This document shows, piece after piece, positions 13,570 through 54,222 of a DNA stretch of 64,000 bases (position 1 is the first letter of the stretch; each line of letters begins with the position of its first letter). The position numbers were made by a program, and so were the translations under genes. This DNA is from Psammoneis japonica (taxonomy: Eukaryota), in the NCBI GenBank assembly GCA_008632985.1, contig QPGO01000016.1, forward strand, positions 220,840-284,839, given 5' to 3'. Under the pieces are notes generated by a model, which saw only the letters and a program-made list of their open reading frames with translations, searched no databases and was not told the origin of the DNA.

Positions 13570-15700
13570 TCACAGTAAAAAGCCTTTTGTTATGTGTGAT
13601 GTCGTGATCAATGAGGGTGGTGCAAGGGGATGAAGCTTGCAACTTGGCTTTTGATTGGCTGCCCCAAAGAGTTGCAGCACCAAATCTAGGTTGCCGGCTT
13701 GCTAACAACAAGACAGAGTGGCTCTTTCGTCAGTGACAGTCGTGTCATTGATGCCGGGTTCTTTCCACCGATGACAACATCTCCACAACTGGCATGTGGT
13801 GGGATGCTCAGTTTGAAGACATGGTTGATGAGCAAGCTGGTTGCAGTGTCATTCGTGCCTGACTTCATTTGAAAGGGCCGGAACATGCATGGAAATTGGA
13901 TTACAATCATTTCTGAGACAGTTGGTGTGGCTTTAAATGCTGTTTGCCTCATCTCCTTTCAACTTGATTTTCCATGCTGCGGATGTCAACACCTGCTTTT
14001 CTGTTGGGAGAAGTCATCAAGCAGCAAGGAAACACTTCATGATTTTAAGTGTCTGTGTGTCTGTTGTCACACTGTTAACAAAGGACTTGTCATCTCATTG
14101 AACACCCAGTTAAAACAGCCCCAGTTCTTCTGTTTCATGCACATTTCTTCTGGGAAGCACAATGTCATCACACCTGTCAGGTCTTCTCATGATTCGCTGA
14201 GTCCTCTTTTCTTGAAGGCTGCATTGAGCACCTTGCTCTCACAAAAGTTGCAGCCATCTTGATTGGCAGGTGGTCACAAACTGCCGCTGTTGCTGTGTGC
14301 TTGTGCAAATCAACATCAGGAATGAGCTCTCTCCCTTCTCTCTGTCTTGAATCTTCTTGAGAAGAACTGGGGAGCCTGCTGCCCAGCATGTGCTTCTTTT
14401 TGGGGAGAAGGCAACTTTGCACTGTTGGCACCATCTCATTTGCTCTGTTGGAAAAGTGTGCACATTTTGGTGTGCAAGGTCAAGTGTGTGGGAACTGACA
14501 TCCAAAATTTGCACCTGCATGCCCCCGTTGTTGGCTGCCCCCTTTTGGGCACATGCACACATGCTGAAAGTGTCCTCAATTGGCCTGTCTTTTTTTCTCT
14601 TTTGATCACTCTTCCAAAGAGCAGTGAAAAGACATGAGAAAGGTGAGGCAGTTGGCAGTTTGTTTGTTGCTGCTCATGCCTCTTTGCCACCTTCTGGCCC
14701 TGCTGCCCAGGAGTTCCTCTTGGTGGTTTTTTTCAGGTGAAGGCATCTTCAGCACTGACAGAGCCTTTCCACTCTGTTTTGGCATTTGAGGTTGAGTGCG
14801 CAGGAACTGCAATTAGAAGCAGGAGCTTGCAAGCACACAAGACTGCTTCTGATGTGTGCAACAGCCAAGAGTGACTGTGTGGGTGCTGGCGCACCCCAGA
14901 CAAGAGGCACATGTCCGGCCACGTGCAGGCAGCTCTGAGTTCATGAAAAAAGGAAGATGAAAAGGAGGAGGAGAGAGAGAGAGAGGGCAACAGTTCAAGC
15001 TTCCTTGTGATGGCCAGACAAATGTTGCACCTCAGGCCTGCCTGCCCCTGACACATCTCAAAAAACAACCATGGTGGCAGCAACAGCCACTGCTCAATTT
15101 TGTTGACAAAGCTTTTCTGCTCAGTCAGATGGCATCGGCCGTCCATCCAGTCTTGAGTGGTGGTTGTCACCCAGCCACCAGTGTCAACTGGTGTTGTCTG
15201 GCCAGTCTTGAGTGGCATGTCATCTCAAGGAGCAGTGGCAAATGTCCAGTCTCGACTGGCATCATCCAGCCAGTCTCAAGTGGCACGCCCTCTCAGCCAG
15301 CACACACATCTGGTCTCAGGTGGCATCGCCCAGCCAGTCTCAAGTGGCATCACCTGGAAAGTCTCCAGTGGTGTGGAGGCTGTGGCTCAGACAGATTGGC
15401 TGCTTCTTTTGATGTTGTCATGCTGAAAGTCAATGCCAACTTGTTTTTCCTCGAAACAGCTTGATGAGCCAAGGAAGCAGGGCGGGCTCTCTCTTTCTTG
15501 TCACCATGCTGTGCAATGTGTGTGCCAGATCATTTCCACTTGCTTGTCATCATAGAAATGGAATTGTGTCATCATGGGATTCTACACAAGTTCCAGCACA
15601 TGTCCCACACACTCATGGAGTGCCACCCACAGCTGGACGATTGCCGGACGAGCGAGAGAGGAAATGAACGAAGTGAATCTTGATTTTTGTCAATGATCCA
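13570..15700. mobile_element. Decayed repeat/TE block 3, including a short CCAGTCTCAAGTGGCA-type minisatellite (15140-15370)
   Basis: CG/TA depleted. CCAGTCT(C/T)(A/G)AGTGG-like motif recurs at ~15147, 15202, 15246, 15270, 15334 and 15361. Confidence 0.6.
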
Positions 15701-16107
15701 GACACGCAACGCTCGAAAAATTTTTGTTTCATGTGACAACATAAACTTTGACACGACAAACATTCTCTTTACTCCGTAGTTGCACTGTCCCGCTCCCTGC
15801 TCATGGCCATGGCGTTGCGATGCCGGCAGCAGGCATGTGTGCTGGGTGCGCTGAGAGATTAAAATAAAAAAATGGACGATGCGTGGAGTAGCACGATCGT
15901 CTAAGCTTGATACGTGCACCAACTGCGCCTAAATAACTAACGCGAAACTTTCTTCGAACTTCAATGCAACGTAGAAACGGTCCACGACACGTAGATTTCT
16001 ACGTGTCTTGTACTTCCACGGCGCCTCCATTGCAGACAGAATCATCTCCTTCTCGTTCGTTCGAGTGCCTCACAATTTCTGAATTGCTCGTCAGTTCACA
16101 GTCCACC

Positions 16108-17136
16108 ATGAAAATCATGAACTTTGTCCTTGCCATCATTGCCGCCATGAGCGCTGGTGCCATCATCAGCCCTATCTCTGTCTCGTTTGTTGATACGGCA
16201 AAGCGCTGCGTTAGCGCCTTGTCGATCAAGGCAACCGCGGCGACCGACAGCCTCGCCACGATCAACCAAGAGCTCCTACGCAAGTTTTTGGACAACACCC
16301 GTTACTCAGATATCGAAACTACCTCCAGCTACTACCATAACATCATCACCAACGACGCTCCCAGCACTGTTCCCTTCGAAAACGCCATCATCATTTCCAG
16401 CTTTTGCGTTTATTTTGACGACGGCGACAAGTCTCCGAGTCGCGTCCAAGACCTCCTACGCAATATCACGCCCACGATTGTACCAGCAGAAGACGCCAAC
16501 GAGTATTGTGTCTATGAATATTTTGTTCAGGACAACAATGGCGACTCCAACGGCAGCCTCCAGCAACTCTTTCACAACACTACTCCCGACAGTACGGTTG
16601 AGACCAAGTCAGTCCCGTTCCAAGATACGTTCACGATATTTTTGGAGATCCAGTCGGCCTTCTTGTCGGACACGTACAGCATCTTTTCGGATATCAAGTC
16701 GGAAGCATTTCAGCTTTGGTGGAAACTTGTAGACGTAATTTCGAACGACGTCATCACGCAAATCCAGACTCAGGCACACGTTCTGCAGGAACGCGATAAT
16801 TTTTTGCCGTTTCGGAACCCAATCTTGTCTAACCATCTCTCTGAGATCAAATCGAGTGTTGGACACTGGGGAAAGAAAGTTTTGGAGATAGCAAAGACTC
16901 GGGCGAACCCAATTTTGTCTGACTTTCGCTCTACCATGGAGTGGAAAGCCAAATATTGGGGGACGAGAGTTTTAGATACGTCGATTCATGTGATGAACGT
17001 TATTCAAGATTCCGTGCCAATTTCGAAACCCCGTGAAGGACCCGAGAATGCTGTTGAGGTTCCGGCACCTGCCATTGAAAGTTGGCTCACGATTTTGAAA
17101 CAAATCAGGCTCGCCTTTCGAATCGGCGTTTTTTAA
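16108..17136 (+). CDS. Hypothetical secreted protein
   Basis: Long ORF with normal CG/TA content. N-terminal signal-like MKIMNFVLAIIAAMSAGA. Internal repeats NPILSNHLSEIKS / NPILSDFRS and HWGKKVLE / YWGTRVLD. Confidence 0.6.
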   Translation: MKIMNFVLAIIAAMSAGAIISPISVSFVDTAKRCVSALSIKATAATDSLATINQELLRKFLDNTRYSDIETTSSYYHNIITNDAPSTVPFENAIIISSFCVYFDDGDKSPSRVQDLLRNITPTIVPAEDANEYCVYEYFVQDNNGDSNGSLQQLFHNTTPDSTVETKSVPFQDTFTIFLEIQSAFLSDTYSIFSDIKSEAFQLWWKLVDVISNDVITQIQTQAHVLQERDNFLPFRNPILSNHLSEIKSSVGHWGKKVLEIAKTRANPILSDFRSTMEWKAKYWGTRVLDTSIHVMNVIQDSVPISKPREGPENAVEVPAPAIESWLTILKQIRLAFRIGVF

Positions 17137-17502
17137 GTGCCCGTAAGCATTGGATATCATGTGGGAGAAAAATGCAGTCAAGACGTTAGTGAGTCTCGAT
17201 TAGCATCGAGGGGATATATGTTATTAGTTAGCTTCGAGCAGAAAGTATAGTACAACAAATCAATTATCGTTCGCATTTCTACCGTACTGGTAGAGTTTGC
17301 CACTTCGTCTACCATCCTAACAGCACTACTTATGTAGCTATCTCTACCGAGACAGAGTAGCAGACTGATAGCTAGAACTGGAAGCCGCCATCTAGCTAGT
17401 TGTGCAGGTCGTATTCATAATTGCCAGCATCCCATCATGGGCGCATCATGTAGTGAAAGTGAAACGGGGTGCTACTGGATTCCCTGAGTATTCCGAAGCA
17501 CA

Positions 17503-18714
17503 TCACTTCTCTCGTTTGAAAATGTCTGGATTTTCTCGCAAAAAGTAGAATTGCAATTCCGGCTGCGAACATCTGTGCAAAACGAGCGGCCAAATGGCAC
17601 TTGGTAGATCCGGGTATCGAAGCAAACCTCGGCCATTTCTGTTTAATTCGGTGTAAAATTCAATTTCTTGCGATAGCCTGTTGTCGAACTGGTTCCCTTC
17701 AATTCCAACGCGCTCTAGGATCGTATTCGTTTCTCTTAGACACGAGGCCACCGCAATCGCCCCCATTGAACCGATTCGATTGCTATGCAAACGCAACTTT
17801 GCGAGCAATGGTTCCTGTCGAAGCGCTTGGGCGAGTAAAACGGCACCATCGTCACCAATCCGGTTAGCTCCTAAACATAGACTCGCAAGCGCCGACGTGC
17901 ATAAAGAACGGAAGCTGCTCCATCAGCGCCAATCCCGTTCTGTCCCACCCCGAGACATTTCAAAGTCCTGTTGTGTGCAAGTCCATTTGCAATTGCAGTT
18001 AGACCCTCATTACCAATTTCATTGCCAAAGAGCAGCAGATGAGTCAAGGTACGGTTGGTTTGTAACAGTGTTGCCAATGCAAAGCAACCTTGAGGGCCGA
18101 CCCGATTTCGACACAAGCCCAGATGCTCCAGTCCAGTGTTGTTTCGGAGCCCGTTTGCAATAGAACCTACTCCATCATCTGAAATTCGGTTGAGACCCAA
18201 TTCCAGGTTTTTCAAAGTATGGTTGACCGAGAGGGCGGCACCAAGTGCCGTAGCCCCGTCATCATCAATTTGGTTCTGACTTAGAACAAGCTTTGTAAGG
18301 CAAGCATTCTCAGCGAGTCGAGGCGCGAACGAAATGATTCCAATTGACCTTATCTGATTTTCATGCAAAATAAGGGTTCTCAAAGTGGTGTTTCCATCCA
18401 AAAGCACACCTATCATGAATGCTCCTTGGAACCGAATGTTGTTGCTTGTTGCGGGAAAGATGAAGTGTTTCGACTCGAGGCATCGTGCGCCGTAAACCCT
18501 CTACCAGTACTCGAACTCCATTGTCTCCCAACTCTTTATCACGAAGCCTCAATTCTTGAAGAGGACTGTCGTGAAGTGCATCAGCGATTACCTTAGCTTG
18601 CTCCTCCCCCTTGCTTCGAAAGTACAATTCTAATTGCAATCGTTGCTCGCGTGTGTATGCGGCTTCCAGCTCTTCTGTAGCAACTAATTCATCGTTTCTC
18701 CAGGCAACCGACAT
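17503..18714 (-). CDS. RNI-like (NLRC3-type) leucine-rich repeat protein (frameshifted)
   Basis: 28-aa LRRs of the form LxxLxLxxNxIxDxGAxAL...N. Diatom-type C-terminus LNRNGRGLL...IWPLVL...FYFLRE. Frame breaks near 18440 and 17905. Confidence 0.82.
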
Positions 18715-19138
18715 GGCTTCGAAGGTCGCTATATGGAAGAAGAGTGATGGAGTTCCCTTGTTTCTGTTTTTGGTCAAGACAGGCAAAGGTCGACACACCT
18801 CATGGCTCATGGTGCGCACGCGCACGCCAAAGTTTCTCTGGAAAAGATCAATACATAGTATTTTAATGAGCATATAAAAATTGATCAATCCAGACACTCA
18901 ACGCTCGAAAAATCTTCATTACTTATATACAATACCCGATACTTATAAAGTCCGTTTCGCGTTTGACTGTCAGCAATACAGAGGTTTCACTCACAAAATA
19001 TTTTTGTATCTCAAAATTGCTCAAAATTCGAGGACTTGTTCCCTCTCACAAAAAATTCACCTCGTCGGTTGGTCTCGTCACTTCCGTAAACGACAGGCAC
19101 TTGTCTCATTTCGCACAATAACACCTTTTCCAGGGACA

Positions 19139-20578: not shown

Positions 20579-20733
20579 GCCACAAGCATTCGGCGTAGCC
20601 AATTTCCCAGAAAACTTAGTTGTCAATGTATTACATACTATTTTTTGGAAACGAAAAGAGACTTTGGAAATCATAACTTATATCATCTGTTTACAGTCGT
20701 CCACTCTTACTCAATGGCATTTCATTTCATGTG

Positions 20734-22287: not shown

Positions 22288-22304
22288 TGACGTAAAAATG
22301 ACGT
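22288..22304. promoter_or_regulatory. Tandem TGACGT bZIP/aureochrome-type sites
   Basis: TGACGT at 22288 and 22299 in the divergent NMT / CIA30-like intergenic region. Confidence 0.4.
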
Positions 22305-27868: not shown

Positions 27869-28139
27869 GGTGGTATTTTCGCACGATCGATGAAAAAAAG
27901 TGAGGTGGTGCGGTGAAGTGGGAGCGGTGGCTTCATATTTCCTTTATTAAAGGGATGTAGAGCTCGCATACTTTGTTATGTGTTGGTATGTGAGCCACTG
28001 CTTCTTACGAGCTTCAACCAAAGCTATCTTTTGAGTCACACAGGACCAAATCCGCACCATAACCCGGAGGGCACTAGCCATGTGGCTCGTCATTGCCCTG
28101 GGGCCTGGGGGGCCCAGCAGTGGTTCTGCTCTGTAGCTA

Positions 28140-29690
28140 GAACAGCAGAGACAGCAGTTCTCTCTGCCAGAGTGCAGAGAGCATGCAGCAGCTGCTGATG
28201 TTTGCCTGTGCTTCATTGTTTGACAAGGAGGAATGAGTTGTTTGTTTTGGCAGAAACCAGCTGCTGACTGCTGACAGTGTGTGCATCGCTCTGTTTGGCT
28301 GCTGCTGCTCCTGCTGTGGCGTGTGACGACAGAGCCAAGCTTGTGGCTGCAGGGTTGTCTCTGGACAAATGGTGGACAGTGCACACTTCACATGTGGTCA
28401 TGCTGCAGTGCATTGCCAGCCACCGCATTTGTGCAAGAGCCAACAGGTTGGGAGTTTTTTTTTTTTTGCACAGAGTTTCAAAATGCTTTGGCAGGGCATC
28501 ACTTTTTGGTTGATTGGTGTGCCCTTTTTTTTTTAGTGCCAAGAAGATCACCGCCAATTGCATGCATTGTGCAAACTCAGCACACAAAATTGACAGATGA
28601 GTTGACTCATGCCTTGGTTTGCAGCATGTTGAGCCATGTGGGAGCACGCATGAGCGGTGCTTGCCACCACAGCTGTGTCATTTTTTGCATTGAAACTTTT
28701 GTGCGGGTCATTTTCATTTTGTGTGAAACACTTGGCACTCTGCACAATGATGTTTGCACTGCATCCATTGCCCCAAATGTGCATCTTTAAGCTTTAAAGA
28801 GTGGCGCACACTGGACATGTCACAAACACATGAAACTTTTTGTGCGGAGTTTCCCAGGGGTGCAAACTTTTGCAAGGGATTTCCTGGCACTGCTGCACAA
28901 TGAGCTTTCATGCTGCTGGTGTTCCTGGGGACTGAAAATGACATCAATGGTGCATGTCAAAAACAACAAAGCTTCTTGCACTTGCATGCTGCCTCAGCCA
29001 GGGCTTTTGACACAGCAGGGCATCATGGGAAGGCCACTTTTTTCCATTGATTGCACTGCGCAGAATGCGCATGACATCAAGTGTGTGCACCCAATGCCCA
29101 AGCACTCATTCACTCATGTGCCGAACATGCATTTGTGGGGCCCCACAGTGAGGGTGCTGTCTTTTTCTCTGAAAATGCCCCGCCATGTCCAAAGGCCCAG
29201 CCCCAGCACCACTTCCCACAAGGACCTCCATGATGCACTCTGGGGTGCAATTTGTCAGCTCTCATGCCTGAATGGCAAAAGTGCTTCACTGGCAAAAGGT
29301 CAAACATTTGCCAGTTGGAGTTGCAAAAATTCCCATTGTCAACAACAAACCATGCACACCATCCTTGCCGATTGTGCAGCCTGGCACTTTTTGTTGACAC
29401 AATCTTGTCAAGCAGCATGGTGTGACACACCTTGTGATGTTTTGGATGCTTTGCTGATGCAGGCAGTTGCTGCAGCATTGCTGGTTGCTGTTTGCACCAG
29501 AGATGACAATTGGGGACTTTCATTTTTCACAGAATTTTTGTGGGCTTCCACAGAGCATCACTTTTGGGTTGATTTGGCGGACACTTTCCAGCTCGCTCTG
29601 GGTGGGACCTCGTGCTGCTGGACTGTGACATTGACGATTTCTTGTCATGCGCCACAAGTCTCGAAGGTGCATTTCTACATGACTTTGGTG
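28140..29690. mobile_element. Decayed repeat/TE block 4 at the duplication junction
   Basis: CG/TA depleted. The first ~190 bp are converted host sequence homologous to 31860-32040; the rest is unrelated insertion up to ~29820. Confidence 0.65.
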
Positions 29691-29821
29691 GTGTTTTATG
29701 TCATTTTGCAGTGCAATTATTGGGCGATCCATTCAACAATTTTTCACATTTTCACACAGAAAGCCATTCCCAAATGTCTGCAGAATGGTGCAGTGCAGGC
29801 TGATTTTAATAAAAAAATTCC

Positions 29822-31606: not shown

Positions 31607-32212
31607 GGTGGTTACGGTTTTCGCACGATCGATGAATCAACAGTAATCATGAAAAAAGTGAGGTCAGCGAGGTCGGTGGAGTTTTTTCATTTTTAAAGGT
31701 CAGTATAGCTCGCAACACTTTGTTCCGTTGTAGTACAGTATGTGTGGTACTGTAATCTTTTTACGAGCTTCAACTAAAGGTATCTTTTGATACACAGGAG
31801 AGATCAAACCCCGGAGGTCACTCGTCATCTTGATGTGCTCCGTTGCCCGTTGCACTCTCTCTACTAGTAGAGTAGAGTAGTATGGCCCTACATACTCTAG
31901 CTAAGTGGCTAGTAATTCTCTCTCAAGAGTGTAGAGAGTATGCTCCTATGCTGTACATTTGATGAGAAGGAATGAGTTGTTGTTGGTTGGGCAGCCACCA
32001 GCTAATAGTGTTTTGATTTGTGGCATGTGGCGTGATGCATGCTTGTAGTTAGTCCAGGTGTCTAATTGACCGCGCTATCATGAGATCGTTTATGCTGGGC
32101 GACTGCCTGATCCAGAGCTACAGAAGCAAGTACCGTTCCGAATTCATGGCGTCATCTGCAAAAGTGCATCAACTCCAATGTGCTCAACACCCTGCCACAA
32201 AGTGAAACTCAA

Positions 32213-35978: not shown

Positions 35979-37150
35979 TTTGTTTACGTTCTGGTTGTTA
36001 ATGTCATCTGGAGCTTCCTTCTTCCCAGGAATTGTGAGCGCTGAGACCTTTCTCCCGTTTCCTGGGTCCACATCTGAGTCCATGTTTGTTTGCAGGCGTG
36101 GCCAGAAAAATGTCATTTGGGTGAGTTGTTTGGTTGTTTGTCTTCAAGTCCACTTGTTTGAACACAAGATTGGGAATTTGTCATTCACTCTGTGCAGCAG
36201 TGGGGTGGCGTGTCACCTGCAATCCAGAAGCTGTGCCAGTCTGAGAATTTCCACATGTTGTTGACCCAGGTGTGAGCAGCTGGGTGATGGCAGCCCTTGT
36301 GCAGCTTTGTTCAAAAAGCTGTCACACTCTGTTGAGAGCACTGGGAGACCACCTTCTCAGTGTGAGACAACATTTTTTGTGACAAATGGTGACTCATGAG
36401 TGCCCAGCTTTGTTTGGTGAGTTGCTGGCCCACAAACTGCATCTCTGGTCATGCTTCACAGATCCCTGCACTTGGCATCATTGCTTGGCCAGCCATGGGG
36501 AGCTGTGCAAGAACAAGCAGCACACCGTGACTGGAACATTTGAGCACCACACAGCAATGTTGTCATGTCCAACAGCTGCCAGCTCAGCACCCACACTTCA
36601 CCATTTCCAAATGTTTGTCAATGGTGTGCCAGGATCACTTGACACCTTTTCATTGTTGCACTTGCTCCACAGTCCACAGACTGTGAGCTGTGGCATCTCC
36701 ACGTGGTGGCTGGAGGGGGCTGTGTCTGCAGTCAGAGCCCCCCCCCAACACACACACACACACAAGGGCTTGACTGTGTGCACAACAAACTGTCCAGGAG
36801 ACTGTGGGCTCCAGAAACTGCTTCACATCATTCTCCAAAGCCAGGAACAAAATTGCAGCCATGCCAAGGCATTGCCGAGCAAGAGTTTGAGACCAAAGCA
36901 AGTGCAGAAGGTGCGTTGTCAAGCAGTGCAGAGCAAAGTCATTGAAATGAGAACTTGCTTGGATGATCAATCTGCTTCCTCATCTCATGTGATGGTGTTC
37001 CCCTCATGCCACGAACGAAAAAGACGCCTGTCATTTTGTGCCTCTTGTGTTTCGCAAGTCTGCTGCACCGCTTCTCTCTCTCGCTGTTTTGCTCTTCCAA
37101 ATCCATGTTGTTTGACAACATCAAGGCAAATGACACAACTCAAATGCTTG
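35979..37150. mobile_element. Decayed repeat/TE block 5, inserted just after the stop of 4-TM copy 1
   Basis: Homology to copy 2 breaks after TTTAAAATAG (35978) and resumes around 37020-37120 (compare 38050-38127). CG/TA depleted. Confidence 0.65.
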
Positions 37151-37452
37151 TTCTCGATCAATCCATGAGCAAATGAAGGACAGGTGTGCGAAACAAGTTT
37201 CTACATGTGGTTCAGAAAATGTTGAAACGGCAGCAGCAAGCCAGGACGAACGAAACCGCCACCACAATTTCGGAAGAGGGGCAATACGAAAACGCGATTC
37301 GTGTCGTTGTGCGATCATTCCACGTTCGAATTCCGCGACTGATTGATATTCTCTATCTTGATCGATTGAAAACGGGGCAAGTTCTCATTTTTTCAACGAT
37401 CGATCGCTTCTTGCTACTTCTTCATTTGCTTATCTCAAATCCTAATCCAGTG

Positions 37453-41349: not shown

Positions 41350-44300
41350 TCACTCCTTTCTTTCGTCAATGTTGACAATTGAGGAAGAATCGGGGTGTGG
41401 CAGTCTCTCTTGTCCCCAGTGGAAGGACACTGCATGGCAATTCCTCCTCAAAGTTTTGATGATTTGAGTGATGATGTTTCTTGCATTTCGATGACCCACC
41501 CACACATTTGCCTGTTGTCATTGTGTGCTGCCCCGACAGAGTGTGAATGTGTGCCCAAGACCTCACCAGCAGAGGTGCATGTCACCATCAACTCCTTTGT
41601 TGCCATGAGTGGTCAACAGCAATGGTTGTTCTGGTGGTTGGGAATGAACAACAAAGTTTTTCAAGTGCTTGAGATGCAGGTGGAAGCTGCTGGGGAGGCT
41701 GGAGATTTTTGTGACTGGCGGGGCGCTCATCCGACCAAACCAACACAAAAGAAGCTCTTCAAGTGATGTTGCAACCATCAGCATTCCATCACCAATGCAA
41801 CACCTGCCCAAGCCAGTCATCAGGGGGCACTCAAGCTGGTCGACCATCTGGGAAAACAGTGTGACAGCTGCTGCAGGGAGAGGCTCCTCAAACGTTTGGG
41901 GTTTGAGCCACGAAATGCACTCTCTGGATTTTGTTGCACCTGCAATTCAGCAGGAAAACCAATTGTTGGTGCACCGGACATGGAGCACATGGTCCCACAC
42001 TAGATGGACTCATGGCGATTGCCTCTGGCTTCGCTCATTCCCTTTTCTGGACATGCGTCACATGGCAGCTTGTGTCTGTTTGGGAGTCTGACAGGTCATG
42101 TCGCCCTTTCAATGCCTCCTCTGCATTGTTTGGGACACATGGCATCAATGCGTTACATTCGAGCACCTCAACTTGTCTTGTGGAAGAGCCCATTGGCCAC
42201 CAACCACTTCGACCATTTTTCAACGACTTTGTTTTTTTTTCTACGTGGGAGCCAGTGTTGTTTCCACGCAGCATCCAACCACGGCTGCGAATCGACTTGT
42301 GGCACTGCACCCTTTGATCCATCAAGGCTTTGCTGCTTTTTTTGCAGTGATTCATTGACAAGCATCCATTCTGTTGACATTGGCTGTTCTTTGCTCCGTT
42401 GCCGGTGGTTGTTGACACTCGCAAGCCTCACGAAGACTTGCCAGCCTTCATCCTCCGAATCGGATGTCTTCTGTGTGACCTCCAGCGCAAGTTCTGCGTG
42501 TTGATGCTGTTTTGTTCCAGCGAACTGTGATGCTCTGCACCAGTGATGACCTCTCCGGGACAGCTGATGATGATCCTGCCTCTCAGCCTTCCTCTCTCCA
42601 TCTTGTGCAATGTGCCAGCAGCTGTGGATGTGGTTCATGCCGGCCAATGCTCTCTGCAGACAAGCAGTCGGGAGCTCTTTTCTGTCACCCCGTGGCGCTG
42701 GCAGATTCTTTCCAACTGGCTCTGGAGCTGACAAAACCAGAGAATTTTGAGCTGCCTGATTGTGTCAATGCTTGGAACAGTCTCTGTCTGTGCACTTTCC
42801 TGTTTGCGAAGTTTTCAAGTCAGGATCCCAGGACGGTTCTAGAGGAGCTCTTGCCCCCTTGCTCTTTTGAGTCACTTCCTCACCTTCACTCACATGTTGA
42901 CCGGTGGTGGCATTTTCTGCTTGAACAGCTTGCCTCTCCCACTTCTGATCCCTTTGTCATCGATGTGGACATTGACAAAGCAGCTTCCAAGGTGGTGCAT
43001 GAGTCCATTTTGCCTGTGCAGCCCCCTGAGCAATGCCCTGATGCGGGTTGCCCGTGCAGCCCTGCTGCATCTTGTCGATCTGGTTCTCTCCCACTGAGAT
43101 CAATCAGGGCCTTTGCTTTCCCTTTGCATCCTTTTGATTGGGTTGACGGTTGTGTTTGCGATGCTCCTGCTTCTGGGAATGATGCTGACGTGTCTCTTTG
43201 TTTTGGAACAGACGCCACGTTGGATCCTTCCAAACTCCCCGACGACGACCCATTTTCCCCTGGATTGAAGTCTTTGCAGCCGCACCCCATCACACACACT
43301 GCACCGCCACTGCATTCCTTTGGTTGGATTGATGGACTTGGCTTTGAAGGTTCTTCCATTGCCCCGGCTGGCTTTTCTCTCAGGTTTGGTGCTGCCGCGA
43401 CTTTGGATCCATCCAAGCTTCCCGACGATGACCCAAACGAGGATGCCCCGCACCCCATCACATGGATGACCAACCTCTTCTTGGATGTCTTGACCCTTTC
43501 TGATGATGACCCAAGCCATCTTTCCTTGCTGTTTTGTTTTTCTGCTCCCTGGTTTGATGACCCAACATTGGATTTGTCGAAGCTGTCCGATGATGACCCT
43601 TGCTCTTCTTCTTCCAACTGGGGGAGGGTTTCTTACACTGCATTGCCTTGCAGCTGATTGTCCGGTGGACTGCGGCACAGCATTTGTGGGTGTGTTTTTC
43701 TGATGACAGCATCATTTGCTCCATTTGTGCGGCTCTTTTTTTTTTTGTGATCAAACCAATGCTTTGATCAGTGGAGGGTGTTGGCGCACCGGACATGGAG
43801 CACATGGTCCCACACTGGACAGACTCATGGTGATTGCCTCTGGCTTCACTCGTTCCCTTTTCTGGACATGCATCACATCGTAGCTTGTGTCTGTTTGGGA
43901 GTCTAACGCCAATGCCTCACCAAAGCATTTGAACCTGTTGCCAGAGCCAGCAGGACACTTTGAAGCACCATGATTTCTTGGCTGGGAGCTGCCTCAATGG
44001 CTGCATTGCCCCAGCACTTGTTGCATGTTTTGACATCTTCAGATTGGGTCCAGGCTCAATGGAGAGTAAAATGCAACCTGGTGGATGGCCAATTCTGCAA
44101 TTGATGCTTGGACATTTTGGTGAAAATCTGCCAAGTGTGAAAATGCCATGCTTTGGAGCTCATTTGGCCTTGACGATGATGGATGTCTCTGCCTGAGTGT
44201 GCACCTCATTTCCAGCCACCACGCAAACATCCAAGTGTGACCCACTTCTGCAAGATGACAGCACCCCTTTGATTGGCTTCTTTCCACAAAAAGACCTGAA

Positions 44301-45400
44301 AGCATCAAAGACACAAAGTCGAGCCCCAAAACGACAGAGCCTCTCAGAGCAACAACCATTGTGATGTGGTGCTGCCAGCCCTCGAATGACTCGCGGTTCT
44401 GATGTGCCAAAAAATGAGCAAAAGATGCTCTTTTTGGCCAGTGGAACTGCTCTGATTCTTTTTGTTTATGAAACAAGAGGCCAGAAAGCTTCACCCTGAC
44501 AATGACAAAGTCAAAAACAAAGAGTTTTGTGAGCAAAACAAAAGAAAATGTTGCAAAGCTTGCCCTCAAGTGCTCACCTCACAACACATGTTCTGGCATC
44601 TGACTCATGATTGGAAGCATCAAAAGGCACACTCTCACCCTAATTTGATGTTGCTTCTCTTCAGAACAATTTTGAAAAATCACTTGGCCCCAATCCACTG
44701 AAGTGCAAAAGTTCAAGCAACTGGAACTCCCACCCAGATTGGCCTCGACTTGTGGTGAGGGGGATGTTGCATGGGTCCTCCAGGTTTGCAAGCCAGAAAA
44801 GGAAAGAAAATGTGGCAGTTTCACAATGTCTCGTCAAGAAAAAACTCACGTTTGCCACCAGAATCAACGCGCTTTCATCATGGCCATGCCCACAAAAAAC
44901 TCCTTCGGCTCATTGCGCAAAATTTTGGAGAGTGATGAGACATCATGAGATGAGGTGATTTACACAGCGTTGTGGTGCAAAATGTGTGTGTGACATCAAC
45001 ATGCCAGGCCTGCGGCTGTGGTGCACCTCTTTCATGGGGTGCCTTTCAACATGTGTGGCGCAATTGCTGTCGGCCTTTTTGTTCCTGGGATGAAATCCAG
45101 TGACAGCTCTGCAGCTGTGGCTTTGGCAAACTCAGTGCTCCAAAGTTTGGGTGGACTGGATCACTCAACAGGCCACTCTTGCTTGCAAAAACTCAGGGGG
45201 GGGCTTCGTCCAGTGTTTCTGAAGACTCCTCTCAAGACCTCCATTGGCCGAGTTTCAACTTGTGTCACCAAACTTTGACGCGGCGCCTCCCACAGTTGTT
45301 GTTTGCCTCTTCTTTCAATTTTCAATGCATTGTCGTTTTCGATTTTCAATGCAACCGAATGCAACAATGATTGTGATGTTTCAGTTTTTGTGTTCACTCG
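41350..45400. mobile_element. Decayed repeat/TE block 6 with internal direct repeats
   Basis: CG/TA depleted. 128-bp direct repeat at 41964-42091 / 43779-43906. Four TTGGATCC..CCGACGATGACCC-type units at 43220-43600. Confidence 0.7.
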
Positions 45401-46037
45401 TCACTCGGGGATGGCATCCGTGACATCACGCGCACGCGACGGCGCGCGCCGCCTGGACTACGTTGACCAGTTCGGAGGACCAGGACGGCCGGCATCAATG
45501 GTGGGGAACGTCAAGACTGTCAATTCGGATCCCTTTCATTTTTGCATTTCAACTTCCCACAACATTTTAGCTTTACTTACTGTCAATCGATCATGTTGAT
45601 GCTTTAGAGCCATTTGAACGCTCTAATTCCACAGAACGCCAAGAAATCCAAAGCCAAACGCGCCTAAAAGGCTTGCTTGGGATCCAGCACGGACCGGATC
45701 GTGGCATTGGAAAATCGTTGTTTGTTCTCTGGGGCTGTGAGCATTGATCATCCCACCATGGTGTGCAGATGATCAGGCATTTAAGGCCGGTAAAGATTCC
45801 CACAGACAATTTAAAAGAAAAGATAGACACTACCGTACAACTGAACCTCATAACACCAGTAGTAGTCTATTTCAGTTGAACAACACAGGCAATACAGGTA
45901 TCTGCTAAACTATTACTATGGCTGCTACACACCCATCATCCTTGGGTGGATACGCTTACCAATCTTCTTTCGTGAGGCTTCATGAATGTGGCACAGAAAG
46001 AATGTAGTAGGATTCATGAATCATTCATGAGTCATGT

Positions 46038-47357: not shown

Positions 47358-48159
47358 TATTTGCAGCCGTAGCTACTGGTGGCCATTTTACTTCTTCTTT
47401 TGGAGTGCAATGAGGGGTCACAAAGTCACAAAGAGGGCGGTGAAAGCATTACTTTTGGATTTTGTTTGACGTGAACCTACTATGTACAGTTCTATGTTCT
47501 ATTTTATTTTACAATGGTTGAAGACGTCAATGACTTATGACTGTGACCGCCATCAACGACTGAAACGATTGAACAACCAACGCGAACCCAATCAAAAATT
47601 TCGAGGTTCAAATCAAGAATGGAGCTCACTTTATTCTCGTTCTTACACTGACAAGAACTTCTTGTTCCTGTTAAGTCTTTGGCTCCAGCTCATCCATGTC
47701 ACCTTTGGCACATGTTCCTGTCACTTCTTGTTTCTTCACAATGATTGGCCTCCTTGTTGCTTGGCCTGTTCCAGCGAATGAATGCAGACACAGCATCGTG
47801 GCTGGTGTCACAATGCTCTTGCCCTTGTCTTTACGATGCACTCATTTCTGTGTAGCAGCTCCCACAAGTTTGCAAGCCAATCAGGCTTTCTTGTCCTGTG
47901 CTCCCCACACGTTCCATGCACTGACCAAGACAGACCACTCCGCCAGGATTTGCTCGATCCCCGCGAACCGACACAGCCACATCGACACAACTGTGTCTGT
48001 TCATCCACTCGAAACATCCTCTCATAGAGAGCCAAAACACAAACCCAATTTGCTGCCAGCCAATCTGGCTTGGGAGGTCACAAGGTGTGAGTGCGAGTTG
48101 CAAGCCCTGGACCTTGGCTGCAAAGGACCATCATCGCCGAAAGACAAATGAACATGGCT

Positions 48160-48678
48160 GCCAATGCTTTTCACCTGTCACAAACTTTGTCAACGGATCC
48201 ACCAAATTTGTCTCTGCATCTTCCTTTCCATCTCTCATCATTCTGGCTGCAACTGCCTCTCTCACTGTGCGACAATTGACTGCGTTGTGTGCTTCTTGTG
48301 CAGCGCAGATTCCGGAGTGCTGACATTCTTCACCACAACATGGTTGTCACAAAACACGCTCGCCGGTCCATCCAATGGTGCTCCAAACATGCACAACTTG
48401 TGATGCAAAGCAACAATCATGTCCTCACAGGTGCGCATTGCAACCAGTTCACTGCCAAATGCAGAAGACTCAACCGCATTCTGCCGTTTGCTGAACCACA
48501 TGATCGGAGAATTGTTCACAAAGACAACAACGCCAGAGTGTGACCTGTGCATGACAATGTTTCCGGCATGATTCACATCAATGAAAGCATGCACAGTTGC
48601 TGGGTTTCCACACAGCTTGGGCATCTCAGGCGGCAACTCTTCTTTGATGTTGCCATGGAATTTGACCCAACATGTCAA
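48160..48678 (-). mobile_element. Ty1/copia (CoDi-like) RNase H relic
   Basis: FIDVNHAGN..RSHSG..PIMWFSKRQNAVESSAFGSELVAM..VFCDN..KKH, then after a frameshift NAVNCRTVREAVAA..GKEDAETNLVDPLTK. Confidence 0.92.
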
Positions 48679-49569
48679 AAAAGGTGATTGTTAGACGGCG
48701 GGTGACGTTTGGGGAAAGAGGCACCCGGTGCAAACAAACAAACCTTTCTTGATTTCACACAAACAAAACAATGATTTGCACATCAATTTTTGCCGGCTCT
48801 CATCATCTGTGCACATCATTTGCTCTTTTGCATGACATTGCAGCCTCACTGAGCATTCAAAGATGTTTGCAAAACGCCCCTGCTTGTTGCTTGGCATGGC
48901 TTTGTTGATGAGAAATGACACCAAGAGGTTGCAAGAGTGGCGTGATGGGTGTTGTCATCCAAAAAAAATCTTGTGTTTGTCTGTGTGTGTGCAACTTGGC
49001 ACTTCTTCTTGTTCATGGAAGACCAACAGTGTGCAAAAAGTCACAGTCATTAGAACAGACTTTTTGCTGACTTTGACAGGTCATGCCAGTCAAAGTCACT
49101 TGCAGCGCTGCAGCTGGTCAAGAGCAATGATGAACAATCAGAAGTCAAAGTCAGGTACGCAGCAGTCAGTCACCTCTCATGGTGTTCAGTCAGCAAACTG
49201 ACTGACACTCAGCCAGCAAACTGACTGACACACATCACTTGTCAAGGCCATCTGAAACTTGTTTCTGCTCTGAACAAGAAGGAGTGTGAGTGAGCACAAT
49301 TCATTGTGCAAAACTTCCACAAGCTGTGTGGCAATTGCACAAAAATTGACTCAGGTCTTGTTTGTTGTCAAAATCAAGCTCAAAACAACCACGCCAATTT
49401 TGCTCTTTGTTTGTCGCACTGATCCAGCACATCCATTGTTGTCATTTGTCTTTTCAAACACAGTCATGTGGATGGTTGCACACCTTCAATTTCTTTGTTT
49501 TCTTGTCAAAATCTCATCCACAGTTGATGCACTTCTTGTTTCAAAGCCAGCTCCACCATTCTGTGGCAC

Positions 49570-52500
49570 TCTCAACGACAGCTCTTGAAAAGTTTCATCT
49601 CTGGGGTCTCCCAAAGAAGCCTCTCAGTGCCTTTTGAATGCAGTTGTTGGGTTGGTTGGTGCACCCCCCATGGTGTCCTTTCACTGTGGGCCAAGGCATT
49701 GCTTTGCTGCAAAATTGCACTCATGAAGTGCTTCCACTGCGGACTTTGGATTTCAAGCCTCGCCCTTGGCTCTGTGTGAAGTGACATGAGGTCACAGCTG
49801 AGCCAGGAGGGTGGCCTTTCAACTCTCAACCACAGCTCTTAAAGTTTCAACTGGGGTCCACTGTGGACACCCAGCACCTTTGGATGGCAGTGGTTTGGTT
49901 TGTTTGTGCATTCACTCATGGTGTCGTTCCACTGCAGAGCTGGGGCTTCAAGTCCCCCCCCCCCTTGGCTTTGTGTGAAGTGACATGTGGGGCCACAGCT
50001 GAGCCAGAGTGGCCTTGCAACTCTTCATCACAGCTCTTGAAGTGTTGTCTGGGGTCCAGAAAAGACACTTGGTGCCTTGTGACTGCAGTTCTTGGGTTGG
50101 CAGGTGCACTCATGGTGTCCCTTCACTGAAGAACTGGGGCTCAAGCCCCCCCTCTGGCTTTGTGCAAAGTGACATGAGGCCACAGCTGAGCCAGGGTGGC
50201 CTTGCAACTCTTTGCCACAGCTCTTGGAGAGTGTTGCCTGGGGCCCAGAAAAGGCACTTGATGCCTTGTGACTGCCGTTGTTGGGTTGGCAGGTGCATTC
50301 ATGGCACCCCTTCACTGCAGAAAAGGGGTTCAAGTCTCACCCTTGGCTTTGTGCAAAGCGACACGGGGCCACAGATGAGCCAGGGTGGCCTTGCAACTCT
50401 CAACCCCAGCTCTTAAAGTGTTGCCTGGGGTCCACCAAAGACACTCAACACCTTGTGCCTGCAGCTGTTGGGTTGGCAGGTGCACTCATGGTGTCCCTTC
50501 ACTGCAGAACTGGGGCTCAAGTCTCGCCCTTGGCTTTGTGCAAAGTGACATGGGACCACAGCTGAGCCAGGGTGGCCTTGCAACTCTCAACCCCAGCTCT
50601 CAAAGTGTCACCTGAGGGGGTCCACCACACGTGCTCAACACCTTGTGACTGTGGTTGTTGGGTTGGCAGGTGCACTCGTGGTGTCCCTTCACCACAGAGC
50701 TGTGCGGGGGGTTCAAATCTCTCACCCTTGGCTTTGTGCAAAGTGACATGGGGCCACAGCTGAGCCAGGGCAGCCTTGCAAATCTCAACCATGGCTCTTG
50801 GAGTGTTGCCTGGGGTCCACCACACATGCTCAACACCTTGTGACTGTGGTTGCTGGGTTGGCAGGTGCACCCGTGGTGTCCCTTCACCGCAGAACTGGTG
50901 CTCAAGTCTCGCCCTTGGCTTTGTGCAAAGTGACATGCTGGGGCCACATCTGAGCCAGGGTGGCCTTGCAACTCTTAACCCCAGCTCTCAAAGTGTTGCC
51001 TCTGGGGTCCACCAAAGACACTCAACACCTTGTGACTGCAGCTGTTGGACTGGCAAGTGCGTTCATGGCATCCCTTCACTGCAGAAAAGGGGTTCAAGTC
51101 TCACCCTTGGCTTTGTTCAAAGTGACATGGGGCCACAGCTGAGCCAGGGTGGCCTTGCAACTCTCAACCCCAGCTCTTGGGGTGTTGACTGGCATCCTCC
51201 AAAGACACTCAACACCTTGTGACTGCAGCTGTTGGGCTGACAAGTGCATTCATGGCATCCCTTCACTGCAGAAAAGGGGTTCAAGTCTCACCCTCAGCTT
51301 TGTTCAAAGTGACATGGGGCCACAGCTGAGCCAGGGTGGCCTTGCAACTCTTAACCCCAGCTCTTAAAGTGTTGCCTGGGGTCCACCAAAGACACTCAAC
51401 ACCTTGTGACTGCAGCTGTTGGGCTGGCAAGTGCATTCATGGCATCCCTTCACTGCAGAAAAGGGGTTCAAGTCTCACCCTTGGCTTTGTTCAAAGTCGC
51501 ACGGGGCCACAGCTGAGCCAGGGTGGCCTTGCAAACCTCAACCATGTCTCTTGAAGTGTCACCTGGGGCCCACCACATGTGCTCAGCACCTTGTGGTGAC
51601 TGTGGTTGTTGGGTTGGCAGGTGCACTCATGGTGTCCCTTCACCACAGAACTGTGCGGGGGTTTCAAATCTCTCACCCTTGGCTTTGTGCAAAGTGACAT
51701 GGGGCCACAGCTGAGCCAGGGCAGCCTTGCAAATCTCAACCATGGCTCTTGGAGTGTCGCCTGGGGTCCACCACACATGCTCAACACCATGTGACTGTGG
51801 TTTGGTGGGTTGACAGGTGCACTCACAGTGTCCCTTCACCACAGAACTGGTGCTCAAGTCTCGCCCTTGGCTTTGTGCAAAGTGACATGCTGGGGCCACA
51901 TCTGAGCCAGGGTGGCCTTGCAACTCTTAACCCCAGCTCTCAAAGTGTTGCCTCTGGGGTCCACCAGAGACTTTCAACACCTCGTGACTGCAGCTGTTGG
52001 ACTGGCAAGTGCGTTCATGGCATCCCTTCACTGCAGAAAAGGGGTTCAAGTCTCACCCTTGGCTTTGTGCAAAGTGACATGGGGCCACAGCTCAGCCAGG
52101 GTGGCCTTGAAACTCTCAGCCATGTCTCTCAAAGTGTCACCTGGGGCCCACCACATGTGCTCAACACCTTGTGAAGGTGGTTGTTGGGTTGGCAGGTGCA
52201 CTCATGGTGTCCCTTCACTGCAGAACCTGGGCTCAAGTCTCGCCCTTGGCTTGACATGAGGAGAGACAGGTGGCATTGCAGCACTTGACCATGGCTCTTA
52301 AAATGTTCACTGGGGTCCACCAAAGACACTCAACACCTTGTGACTGCAGTTGTTGGGTTGTCAGTCAGGCACATTCATGGCGTCCCTTTGCTGAAAAATT
52401 TGGGCTAAAGTCTCAGCACCCTTGTGTTTGTGTGAAGTGTCGCGGGGTCTCAGTTGCACCACGGCGGCTTTTCAGCTCCCAACCGCGGCTCTGAAAGTGT

Positions 52501-52890
52501 CACCTGGGGTTCACCAAAGACAGTCAATGCCTTTTGACAGCAGTGGTTGGGAGGGCAGGTGAGACTTGAACCCCACTTCATTGCAAAACTGGGGTTGAAG
52601 TCTCGCCCTTGGCTTTGTGCAAAGTGACATGGGGCCACAGCTGAGGCAGCCAGGGTGGTCTTGCAACTCTCAACCATGGCTCTTAAAGTGTTGCCTGGGG
52701 TCCACCAAAGATGCTCAACACCTTGTGACTGCAGTTTTTGGGTTGGCAGGTGCACATTCATGGCATCTCATTGCTGCAGAGCTGGGGTTCAAGTTTCACC
52801 CTCAGCCAGGGTGGCCTTGAAACTGTTGCCCATGGCTCTTAAAGTGCTGCCTGGGGTCCACCAAAGATGCTCAATGCCTTGTGACTTTCG
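49570..52890 (+). repeat. Satellite array, about 17 monomers of 187-198 bp
   Basis: CCAGGG landmark at 50191, 50380, 50567, 50765, 50955, 51144, 51331, 51518, 51716, 51907 and 52096. Diverged monomers at both edges. Confidence 0.95.
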
Positions 52891-53775
52891 CAAAGTTGCA
52901 AAGCAGGGTGATGAAAGCATTTTGTTTGATGTGAACCTGGGCAATTCTGTGTGACATTTTAACGTTTAAAGATGTCAATTGTTTTGTCCAACACTGAATG
53001 TGGAATGCAAAACACATGATGAGATGGTGTTTTCCAGATTTGAACTGACCTTTTCAGAGCATTTGCAACTCGGGCAGTGAGAAAATGAGTGGATCACAAA
53101 TTGCTTTGTTTTCTAAGAGGGGAGAGAGTTGAAGATGACCAGACTCCAACTCAACTTGGGCTGGATGATCAGGGCCAAATTGAGATGTTGTGCTTGCAGC
53201 AACTGGGTGTCAGGTTTCAGTGCCAGATGTCCAAAAGCTCAGAGAACAGTGGCGGCTGTTTCTGAGCTGGGTGCTCTTGAGCATCAGTCGCAGCCATTTT
53301 GAAGCAACACCACCAGCATGAACGCACTTTGTTCTTGTTGCCTGTTTGCTGACTGGCTCAAATGGAGTGGACACAGAAACATTGTGTTGCATCTTCGGCT
53401 TTGTTGTTGAGACTGATCTTGAAAAGACGCTGCCACTCAAACTCAAGCACCAGCTTTGGGCACAAAAAATTCCATCCACCGCCTTCTTTGGTGGTCCCTG
53501 CCCCTGCATCTGGAGTGTCCTTGCCCACCCAAAAGATGACGGGGTTCTTTGGTGTGTGGTTTTGCGTGCTGAATGAAATGTGTGAGGAGATGGGCACACT
53601 CAGCTTCATGATGTGAGAGAAAAACAGGCAAGAGAAAAACAAACACTCTGTCTCTCACCAAGGCTGTGTTGAGGGGACTTGCCAACAAAGGAAAATGACA
53701 ACTCTTTTGCCACTGGCTTGCTCCTTCGGCTGTGGTCACTTGGCCAAAGCACTCCATTTTTCTCAATGATGCCTT

Positions 53776-54222
53776 GTGCAACATGCAGCCACCAATGAGA
53801 GTCAACGCATCACGGCGACGTGTTACAGCCTTTAAATGTCACAAAGGGCGTGACAAAAACAACCTTTTGTCTGCATGCATGCTTCATTGTGAATTCACAG
53901 CGGAGTGGTACATCGTGACCACTGGGCAGGAGGCCAGGGGTTCGAAACCCGAGTGGGAGTTGTCTGCAGCAACGTTGATCACTGTCGAACGCGTAAAACT
54001 CTGTGCAGTTCTGTATGTTCCTTCGTACGTACCCACACTGTTCCGCCAAAACCGTGCAGTGTCAGCACACGTCAGTAAAGAGCCGCATGGACGCGTGACA
54101 CATGGGGAGGAGTGCAACACACAGCCACTGATGAGAGTTAATGTATCACGGCGACGTGTTACAGCCTTTAAATGTCACAAAGGGCGTGACAAAAATGACC
54201 TTTTGTCTGCATGCACACTTCA
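53776..54222 (+). repeat. 111-bp direct repeats (53776-53886, 54112-54222) enclosing a tRNA-like sequence
   Basis: Gap-free alignment at offset 336. Confidence 0.92.
53891..53960 (+). mobile_element. tRNA-derived Pol III promoter / SINE-head-like element
   Basis: A-box-like CAGCGGAGTGG (53898) and B-box GGTTCGAAACC (53939) in a GGG-TTCGAAA-CCC T-arm. Acceptor and anticodon stems are poor. Confidence 0.6.

What the first reader, a model, noticed from the sequence alone, without database searches (positions are those of the whole stretch)
13570..53900. Surviving TpA sites in converted blocks are mostly TTAA/TAA/TTA
Residual TAs seen include ctttaaat (13931), ttttaagt (14043), gttaac (14074), gttaaaa (14109), tttaagctttaaag (28786), cttaaag repeatedly in the satellite (50412, 51363, 52682), ttttaacgtttaaag (52957) and tttaaatg (53831). 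GTAC, GTAG, CTAC and ATAC are nearly absent. This suggests a sequence-context fingerprint for the mutator, with T 5' and/or A 3' protective.
Basis: seen in the sequence. Interest (0 to 1): 0.7.

Follow-up and report, generated by a model that had tools for sequence, protein, structure and literature searches.

The report
Flank rule of diatom TA-erasing mutator
In this diatom-like genome an unidentified activity rewrites T-A steps in transposons to T-G or C-A, fastest when the A is followed by C or T and hardly at all in TTTAAA, which explains the few TA steps left and narrows down what kind of enzyme is at work.

Summary
Partly confirmed and refined. Eight transposon/repeat blocks keep 59 TA in 21.5 kb, against 1,581 in 37.9 kb outside. 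Of these, 44 of 59 have a 5' T or 3' A (36% outside); TTAA is 18 of 59, or 10 of 50 once the satellite is collapsed. CTAC/GTAG is not nearly absent, and CTAG also survives.

Comparing unmutated with mutated copies elsewhere in the genome gave direct rates. Outer flanks act symmetrically (fast RRTAYY, resistant TTTAAA). Rates from one Copia family predict the window's survivors (fit p 0.35-0.8) and replicate in three other families.

Changes are almost pure transitions, hit both strands and are not clustered by strand. AA is not raised, so Pol eta is rejected. The 3' rule resembles TadA editors, not ADAR or fungal Tad2/3.

Best guess: a DNA adenine deaminase aimed at silenced repeats (55%); no enzyme identified. 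TpA hypermutation is in print only for Bigelowiella, without flank data. This scan noted TA erasure and TTAA survival before on other pieces of this genome.

The parts
1571..4904 (.). TA-erased block 1 (includes degenerate repeats related to the 187-bp satellite); 9 TA left
8448..9584 (.). TA-erased block 2; 1 TA left; matched with 0 differences by a contig of public run X1
13613..15636 (.). TA-erased block 3; 10 TA left, four of them TTAA (T at 13934, 14046, 14076, 14111)
28077..29802 (.). TA-erased block 4 between tandem gene duplicates; 8 TA left, two TTAA at 28788 and 28795
36003..37189 (.). TA-erased block 5; 0 TA; no second copy found in the genome search
41363..45041 (+). Converted copy of a 1.84-kb non-autonomous element with 16-bp terminal inverted repeats (element A: 41363-41962 and 43909-45041), split by element B; unconverted copies on C3, C223, C32
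41964..43907 (+). Element B with 129-bp direct repeats, nested in element A; relatives on C59 and C150 keep TA in their first 600 bp, where the window copy keeps 2 of 24
47646..53797 (.). TA-erased block 7; 20 TA left
49752..52900 (+). 187-bp satellite, about 16 units; unit site tctTAaag reads TA in 6, TG in 5, CA in 4, GA in 1 of 16 units; site tctTAacc reads TA in 3 of 16; the other TG/CA-polymorphic columns keep no TA
53772..54226 (+). Young, partly converted 455-bp TRIM-like LTR element; cttTAaat in each LTR is the most resistant site across 36 copies
54174..56214 (.). TA-erased block 8; 0 TA as called by the HMM

Best explanation
A nuclear DNA adenine-editing activity, most likely a deaminase (A to hypoxanthine, copied as G), is aimed at silenced, CpG-methylated transposon domains after insertion. 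It converts TpA to TpG one site at a time on either strand, over many rounds. It needs a 5' T almost absolutely and prefers a pyrimidine just 3' of the target A (TAC, TAT about 3-4 times TAA; TAG intermediate). It is further tuned by the bases two steps out on both sides in a dyad-symmetric way (fast RRTAYY, slow YYTARR). A TA site has two target As and is lost at the sum of both rates, so sites reading TAR on both strands (TTAA, CTAA/TTAG, CTAG, above all TTTAAA) go last. Shown: direction, timing after insertion, flank rates, strand behaviour, product purity. Inferred: that the lesion is on A rather than T, that the chemistry is deamination, that methylated chromatin recruits it, and that it serves defence.
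For: Direction: the C172 copy of element A differs from the unconverted C3 copy by 107 substitutions, 78 of them TA>CA (43) or TA>TG (35). TA falls from 91 to 11 while CG falls only from 82 to 77. Rates (25 Copia copies, 5,927 site-by-copy records): +1 A .48 C 1.84 G .67 T 1.69; +2 A .58 C 1.38 G .95 T 1.32; -2 A 1.40 C .88 G .95 T .85; -3 A 1.64 C .84 G 1.29 T .56. Replication: at sites with TAY on one strand and TAR on the other, the TAY strand is hit 73:23 (element A), 234:84 (TRIM), 48:14 (second Copia family) and 10:4 (element B, not significant). Prediction: with exposure fitted only to the total, the rates reproduce the window's survivors (log-likelihood -15 vs -58 for uniform; fit p 0.35-0.40, or 0.54-0.82 with variable exposure; Spearman -0.94). 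They also fit 87 TA in ten scattered 10-kb pieces (p 0.08-0.14) and 266 TA in flanks of TRIM loci (p 0.05-0.08). Leak at non-TA adenines follows the same 3' rule, only in converted segments: VAY 36 of 6,470 vs VAR 6 of 7,587 (p=1.5e-7); VAY in unconverted segments 11 of 12,005. Purity: 1,100 A>G against 1 private A>T and 0 private A>C at TA in converted segments. Private CpG transitions are raised in the same segments (25 of 4,342 vs 4 of 6,131), transversions are not (17 of 34,444 vs 19 of 54,584). TadA-derived editors prefer TA/UA and a 3' pyrimidine (PMC12528748, PMC12027372, PMC13225742; passages).
Against: No enzyme is identified. Three family searches found only housekeeping-like deaminases, with no chromatin-reader or dsRNA-binding domain in the frames scanned: TadA-like (C38), ADAT2-like (C26), two ADAT1/ADAR-domain genes (C40, C79), a pan-diatom deaminase-oxygenase fusion, dCMP deaminase, RibD-like and guanine-deaminase-like. 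Sequence data cannot tell A>G from T>C on the other strand. The TA requirement (at least 90-fold over other As) is far stricter than the 5-10-fold of TadA8.20 on RNA. The one eukaryotic ADAT-type mRNA editing system checked prefers UAR, the opposite 3' rule. The dyad-symmetric outer effect and lack of same-strand clusters are not expected of a single-strand editor. Site residual SD is 1.74, so unmodelled site effects remain. Methylation was not measured.
Confidence: 0.55

Rival explanations
1. The lesion is on the thymine: an enzyme or reaction modifies the T of R-T-A (oxidation or O4-alkylation) so that it pairs with G, giving T>C. The flank rule then reads as a 5' purine preference.
For: Formally identical spectrum; pure transitions; fits dyad symmetry equally well. 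That such T lesions miscode is recalled knowledge.
Against: No TpA-specific thymine-modifying mutator appeared in my searches. The motif matches a known adenine-deaminase hierarchy, YAY over YAR. TET/JBP-type genes were not searched.
Confidence: 0.2
2. Two-step process: a palindrome-reading adenine methyltransferase or other duplex-binding factor marks TpA (RRTAYY), and a second step deaminates or miscopies one marked A.
For: The -3/+2 effect changes site loss about 2.7-fold but barely changes which strand is hit, while +1 does both. A symmetric -3/+2 model costs 9.5 log-likelihood units; dropping -3 costs 105; a symmetric -2/+1 model costs 127.
Against: TAC is as fast as TAT, so symmetric ApT methylation is not the mark. 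Adenine methyltransferases were not searched. DNA shape or stacking could give the same symmetry with one enzyme.
Confidence: 0.1
3. Error-prone patch synthesis (Pol eta-like) during repair of T:G mismatches in methylated repeats inserts G opposite T.
For: CpG transitions co-localise with TA loss; Pol eta hotspots include TA, and a 3' T raises them (PMC8749460 passages).
Against: Pol eta acts at WA, so AA should be raised (PMC6423074 passages). Here AA>AG is 11 of 3,769, against CA 20 of 5,191 and GA 11 of 5,097. TAH vs TAG did not differ for Pol eta, whereas here TAC is far above TAA and TAG. Transversions are not raised; neighbouring hits share a strand 1,039 times against 1,037 expected. 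TA loss far outruns CpG loss.
Confidence: 0.07
4. RNA-level A-to-I editing (ADAR/ADAT) fixed by reverse transcription or cDNA gene conversion.
For: Conversion is graded from the 5' to the 3' end of the Copia element; ADARs prefer a 5' U.
Against: Both strands are hit almost equally (strand factor 0.90). Copies are mutated independently (direction concordance 0.589 vs 0.588 expected over 191 pairs). The two LTRs of one element differ. A DNA-transposon-type element and a satellite are affected. ADARs prefer a 3' G, which is disfavoured here.
Confidence: 0.04
5. The bias is an artefact of satellite pseudo-replication, ancestral composition, re-creation of TA, or sequencing error.
For: 9 of 18 TTAA come from two satellite positions; 50 of 114 residual TAs in old Copia copies are not at young-copy TA sites.
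Against: It holds after collapsing the satellite, in direct copy-to-copy fates and in independent DNA. A public-run contig matches block 2 with 0 differences (possibly the same sample).
Confidence: 0.01

Closest known systems
TpA hypermutation of integrated NCLDV and virophage DNA in Bigelowiella natans (Mettrop et al., bioRxiv 10.64898/2026.01.13.699255)
   Same: TpA>TpG/CpA only, both strands, confined to foreign or mobile DNA in the nucleus, adenosine deaminase proposed.
   Different: Rhizarian alga vs diatom; there two viral regions with TpA still abundant, here near-complete erasure across many transposon classes. The main text has no 'context', 'trinucleotide', 'flanking' or 'diatom'; its supplement (Table S2) was closed.
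TadA and TadA-derived adenine base editors (ABE8e, ABE8e-YA, TadA8.20)
   Same: A>G, 5' T/U preferred; YAY over YAR in ABE8e-YA; UAU highest for TadA8.20 in the randomised library; native site UAC.
   Different: Engineered, act on single strands. 5' selectivity is 5-10-fold and CA is often accepted, whereas here TA is at least 90-fold above other As. UAG is a good TadA8.20 site in the fixed reporter. Here there is a dyad-symmetric outer preference and no same-strand clustering.
Repeat-induced point mutation (RIP) of ascomycetes
   Same: Domain-limited, dinucleotide-specific mutation of repeats after insertion (PMC2621366, start of abstract in listing).
   Different: RIP is C>T at CpA and creates TpA; this removes TpA. 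One erased block has no second copy found.
DNA polymerase eta A:T mutagenesis in somatic hypermutation
   Same: A>G at TA is a hotspot; a 3' T enhances it.
   Different: WA includes AA, not raised here; no TAC over TAG/TAA hierarchy; strand bias and patch synthesis not seen.
ADAR and fungal Tad2/Tad3 mRNA A-to-I editing
   Same: 5' U preferred.
   Different: RNA substrates; the 3' preference is G (ADAR) or A/G (Fusarium), the opposite of the pyrimidine preference here.

Membership tests
Bigelowiella-type TpA hypermutation | Changes almost only TpA>TpG/CpA | tested here: met
   78 of 107 substitutions in a 94% copy pair; 1,100 A>G vs 1 private transversion at TA
Bigelowiella-type TpA hypermutation | Confined to foreign or mobile nuclear DNA, after integration | tested here: met
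   Blocks are transposon/repeat copies; copies mutated independently; genes between blocks keep TA
Bigelowiella-type TpA hypermutation | About 1000-fold raised de novo rate, active in some lines only | not testable with these tools
   Needs a mutation-accumulation experiment
Bigelowiella-type TpA hypermutation | Same flank preference (same enzyme class) | not testable with these tools
TadA/ABE-like adenine deamination | 5' T preferred and 3' pyrimidine over purine | tested here: met
   against PMC12528748 and PMC12027372
TadA/ABE-like adenine deamination | Single-strand substrate, giving strand-biased or same-strand clustered edits | tested here: not met
   Same-strand ratio 0.98-1.03 at all distances from 1 to 640 bp; strand factor 0.90; 1 of 5 pairing/hairpin terms had an interval above 1
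TadA/ABE-like adenine deamination | A TadA/ADAT-fold enzyme shown to do it | tested here: inconclusive
   TadA-like and ADAT2-like genes exist but look like ordinary tRNA editors; activity untested
Pol eta mutagenesis | WA hotspot: AA raised as well as TA | tested here: not met
   AA 11 of 3,769 vs CA 20 of 5,191 and GA 11 of 5,097
Pol eta mutagenesis | Other errors and strand-coordinated patches | tested here: not met
   Transversions not raised; no strand runs
ADAR / fungal Tad2-3 editing | 3' purine (G, or A/G) preferred | tested here: not met
   +1 A 0.48 and G 0.67 vs C 1.84 and T 1.69; reference values
Fungal RIP | C>T at CpA, raising TpA | tested here: not met
   TpA is removed; TG>TA is the rarest G>A class
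Fungal RIP | Triggered by homology pairing; needs RID/DIM-2 | not tested
   Methyltransferase genes not searched; block 36003-37189 has no second copy found

The most novel reading that the evidence does not exclude
Diatoms (and perhaps other SAR algae) have a natural adenine editor that works on double-stranded chromosomal DNA. It is recruited to silenced transposons, reads the duplex around a TpA step as the near-palindrome RRTAYY, and changes one A per visit, choosing the strand by the base 3' of the A. I found no such natural enzyme in print.
Probability: 0.3. Interest if true: 0.9.

Novelty: new variant of a known kind. Interest (0 to 1): 0.72.

Why it matters
TpA-directed A:T>G:C hypermutation of mobile DNA appears in print for one alga only, with no enzyme and no flank data in its main text. 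A measured rate table (T-A-Y over T-A-G over T-A-A, symmetric outer flanks, leak at V-A-Y, pure transitions, no strand runs) rules out Pol eta, ADAR-type and reverse-transcription routes. It gives a signature that any candidate enzyme must reproduce in vitro and that can be checked at once in the Bigelowiella mutation list. If the enzyme edits adenine in duplex DNA, it would be a new kind of genome defence and a natural counterpart of engineered base editors. The table also works as a clock: the share of TTTAAA-type survivors measures how long a repeat has been exposed.

Tried and rejected
Pol eta (AA not raised, no transversions, no strand runs). In the oldest Copia copies AA>AG is raised (307 of 4,885 vs CA 139 of 5,937); I read this as lineage divergence before insertion and did not use it, but did not test that reading. 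Processive single-strand editing. Hairpin substrate: 4 of 5 pairing terms null, one (3-base loop xTA) 1.47 with interval 1.12-2.25, among 11 terms tried. TACG as a TadA-like extra hotspot: 1.2, interval 0.96-1.66; local CpG count: no effect. Nucleosome-scale periodicity of site residuals: none. A>T excess as a sign of abasic intermediates: none. Deaminase fused to a chromatin reader: none among 10 PF00383, 6 PF14437 and 4 PF02137 matches; no ADAT3 was seen, so the search is incomplete. The deaminase-oxygenase fusion on C79 is widespread in diatoms and gives no specific link. The N that Mettrop et al. flag is present in the diatom ADAT2-like protein (GCRND), but I recall it as general in ADAT2. 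Pfam found nothing in 12 open frames from the window's blocks. ARAGORN and Rfam found nothing in the TRIM. Public runs: no RNA holder listed; contigs only, no usable TA polymorphism. Rows dropped: L180 (no alignment), L181 (solo LTR), L155 (partial); L171 and L160 (shared history with L168 and L176) from then on; overlapping TATA sites and records with changed flanks throughout.


Full report
SETTING. The window is G000:C17:220840-284839 of a 91.4-Mb eukaryotic assembly. Genes between the blocks include N-myristoyltransferase, PRP38, NmrA and a chlorophyll-binding protein. Named relatives of one protein from this genome are from diatoms (Attheya, Chaetoceros, Cyclostephanos, Seminavis), so the host is taken to be a diatom (inference).

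OBSERVATION. Eight blocks (21,542 bp) hold 59 TA; the 37,896 bp outside hold 1,581. Survival relative to outside is TTAA 0.47, CTAA/TTAG 0.22, CTAG 0.13, GTAA/TTAC 0.055, ATAA/TTAT 0.053, CTAC/GTAG 0.048, ATAG/CTAT 0.018, GTAC 0.014, ATAC/GTAT 0 and ATAT 0. Uniform loss is rejected (0 of 200,000 simulations), also with one satellite unit and with 100 bp trimmed from block edges. Half of the TTAA come from two positions of a 187-bp satellite.

DIRECT TEST. Residual counts cannot separate survival from ancestry or gain, so I looked for repeats with both unmutated and mutated copies. (i) Element A (window 41363-41962 and 43909-45041) has TA-rich copies on C3, C223 and C32. A copy on C172 differs from the C3 copy by 107 substitutions, 78 of them TA>CA or TA>TG, and keeps 77 of 82 CG. 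TA loss is therefore separate from, and faster than, CpG decay. (ii) A 455-bp TRIM-like element (window 53772-54226): over 36 copies compared with the least mutated one, cttTAaat is kept in 34 of 36 and 33 of 36; the other 29 sites are kept in 3-71%. (iii) A young Copia family: 30 loci fetched, 27 used. Direction concordance between copies equals expectation (0.589 vs 0.588, 191 pairs), so copies were mutated independently after insertion; two pairs share history and one member of each was dropped.

THE RULE. Each TA has two target As. A competing-risk model with exposure per copy and 500-bp segment (25 copies, 5,927 records) gives relative rates by offset from the A: +1 A 0.48, C 1.84, G 0.67, T 1.69; +2 A 0.58, C 1.38, G 0.95, T 1.32; -2 A 1.40, C 0.88, G 0.95, T 0.85; -3 A 1.64, C 0.84, G 1.29, T 0.56. 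Site-bootstrap intervals from the 27-copy fit exclude 1 for the main terms. The other families together give the same pattern (+1 A 0.42, C 1.94, G 0.66, T 1.89). 'T 5' protective' is thus mostly the 3'-A rule seen from the other strand. With exposure fitted only to the total number of survivors, these rates predict the window's residual classes (observed 6,0,2,0,14,7,5,6,1,18; predicted 4.0,0.8,0.8,0,18.5,10.1,4.1,6.5,0.4,13.8; fit p 0.40). They fit less tightly 87 TA from ten scattered 10-kb pieces (p 0.08-0.14) and 266 TA from TRIM flanks (p 0.05-0.08, CTAC over-predicted). In the pooled survivors TTTAAA is not depleted at all (ratio 1.17), while ATTAAT is at 0.05. In the six most diverged Copia copies, 50 of 114 residual TAs are not at young-copy TA sites but show the same bias, so 'survivor' includes later gains or lineage differences filtered by the same rule.

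TWO LAYERS. Which strand is hit depends strongly on the +1 base (odds A 0.58, C 2.06, G 0.69, T 1.21) and weakly on +2 (0.83-1.19; 0.59-1.56 in the other families). Whether the site is lost depends on both (+2: A 0.55, T 1.47). Forcing -3/+2 to be dyad-symmetric costs 9.5 log-likelihood units; dropping -3 costs 105; forcing -2/+1 to be symmetric costs 127. Site residual SD is 1.74, so these differences overstate certainty about threefold. The outer flanks behave like a property of the duplex (RRTAYY fast, YYTARR slow); the +1 base behaves like a property of the edited strand.

OTHER CONSTRAINTS. In converted segments TA gives 1,100 A>G against 1 A>T and 0 A>C (transversions counted only if private). 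Non-TA adenines leak at under 1%, and only when followed by a pyrimidine (36 of 6,470 vs 6 of 7,587; 11 of 12,005 in unconverted segments). AA is no higher than CA. Both strands are hit (factor 0.90), and neighbouring hits are not on the same strand more than expected at any distance up to 640 bp. Private CpG transitions are raised about ninefold in the same segments and transversions are not. This fits co-location with methylated chromatin; in Phaeodactylum loss of DNMT5a depletes methylation and raises expression of young transposons (PMC9998398, abstract). Methylation was not measured here.

MECHANISM. Best reading (0.55): a DNA adenine deaminase recruited to silenced repeats, acting one site at a time over many rounds. 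The 5'-T, 3'-pyrimidine hierarchy matches TadA-derived editors (PMC12528748, PMC12027372, PMC13225742; passages). It is opposite to ADAR and to Fusarium mRNA editing at +1 (PMC4817773, passages). Against: selectivity for TA is much stricter than TadA8.20's, nothing points to a single-strand substrate, and the deaminases found in the genome look ordinary. A thymine-centred lesion (0.2) or a two-step mark-then-edit process (0.1) cannot be excluded from sequence. Pol eta (PMC6423074, PMC8749460; passages) and RNA editing followed by reverse transcription are disfavoured.

WHAT IS KNOWN. Mettrop et al. (bioRxiv 10.64898/2026.01.13.699255; I read parts 1-3 of 5, abstract to conclusion, and ran a word search) report TpA-only A>G/T>C hypermutation of integrated viruses in Bigelowiella natans and propose ADAT2. 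They give no flank analysis and do not mention diatoms; their supplement, which may hold flanks, was closed. Searches for a diatom report or a natural duplex-DNA adenine deaminase listed nothing relevant (titles and abstract starts only; subscription journals are mostly missing). This scan has noted TA erasure and TTAA/YTAR survival many times on other pieces of this genome; two word searches for a rate or enzyme analysis returned no note.

VERDICT. A real feature: a new variant of a kind described once. Interest 0.72.

Noticed in passing
window 53772-54226; L081-L121: High-copy 455-bp TRIM-like LTR element with roughly 117-bp LTRs, a polypurine tract and an internal tRNA-like A/B-box stretch (box identity recalled; no ARAGORN or Rfam hit). 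All 14 other copies checked sit inside already TA-erased DNA, suggesting targeted insertion into heterochromatin.
   Followed up: partly
L152-L176 (Copia family, reference G000:C16:221915-228484): Conversion is polar along the element whatever its orientation: 0.56-0.58 at 0.5-1.5 kb falling to 0.09-0.10 at 5.5-6.5 kb; 5' LTR 116 of 283 vs 3' LTR 70 of 317. It looks nucleated near the promoter/gag end.
   Followed up: partly
window 36003-37189: Fully TA-free block with no second copy found in the genome search, lying between two tandem gene duplicates; a partner repeat may not be needed, or has been lost.
   Followed up: partly
window 28077-28262 vs about 31800-32003: Conversion at the edge of block 4 runs into DNA homologous to the unconverted flank of the neighbouring duplicate gene.
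   Followed up: partly
Copia family: An A in CGTA is edited about half as fast as the additive model predicts (0.48, interval 0.34-0.75), while the opposite TACG strand is not slowed; an adjacent CpG, possibly methylated, may shield one strand.
   Followed up: no
L201:1315-1773 (G000:C151): TA-erased fragment of a nucleoside-deaminase-like gene inside a converted domain.
   Followed up: no
L196:313-1785 (G000:C79): Deaminase fused to a 2OG-Fe(II) oxygenase, conserved across diatoms; substrate unknown.
   Followed up: partly
L208 and L209 (G000:C40, C79): Two separate ADAT1/ADAR-domain (A_deamin) genes; no dsRNA-binding domain in the six frames scanned.
   Followed up: partly
L022 and L023 (element B relatives): Both copies are TA-rich in their first 600 bp and TA-poor in the rest, as if the element kept moving after part of it had been converted.
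   Followed up: no
window 3583-4732 and 49568-52900: The 187-bp satellite has a diverged inverted relative (about 60% identity) in block 1.
   Followed up: no
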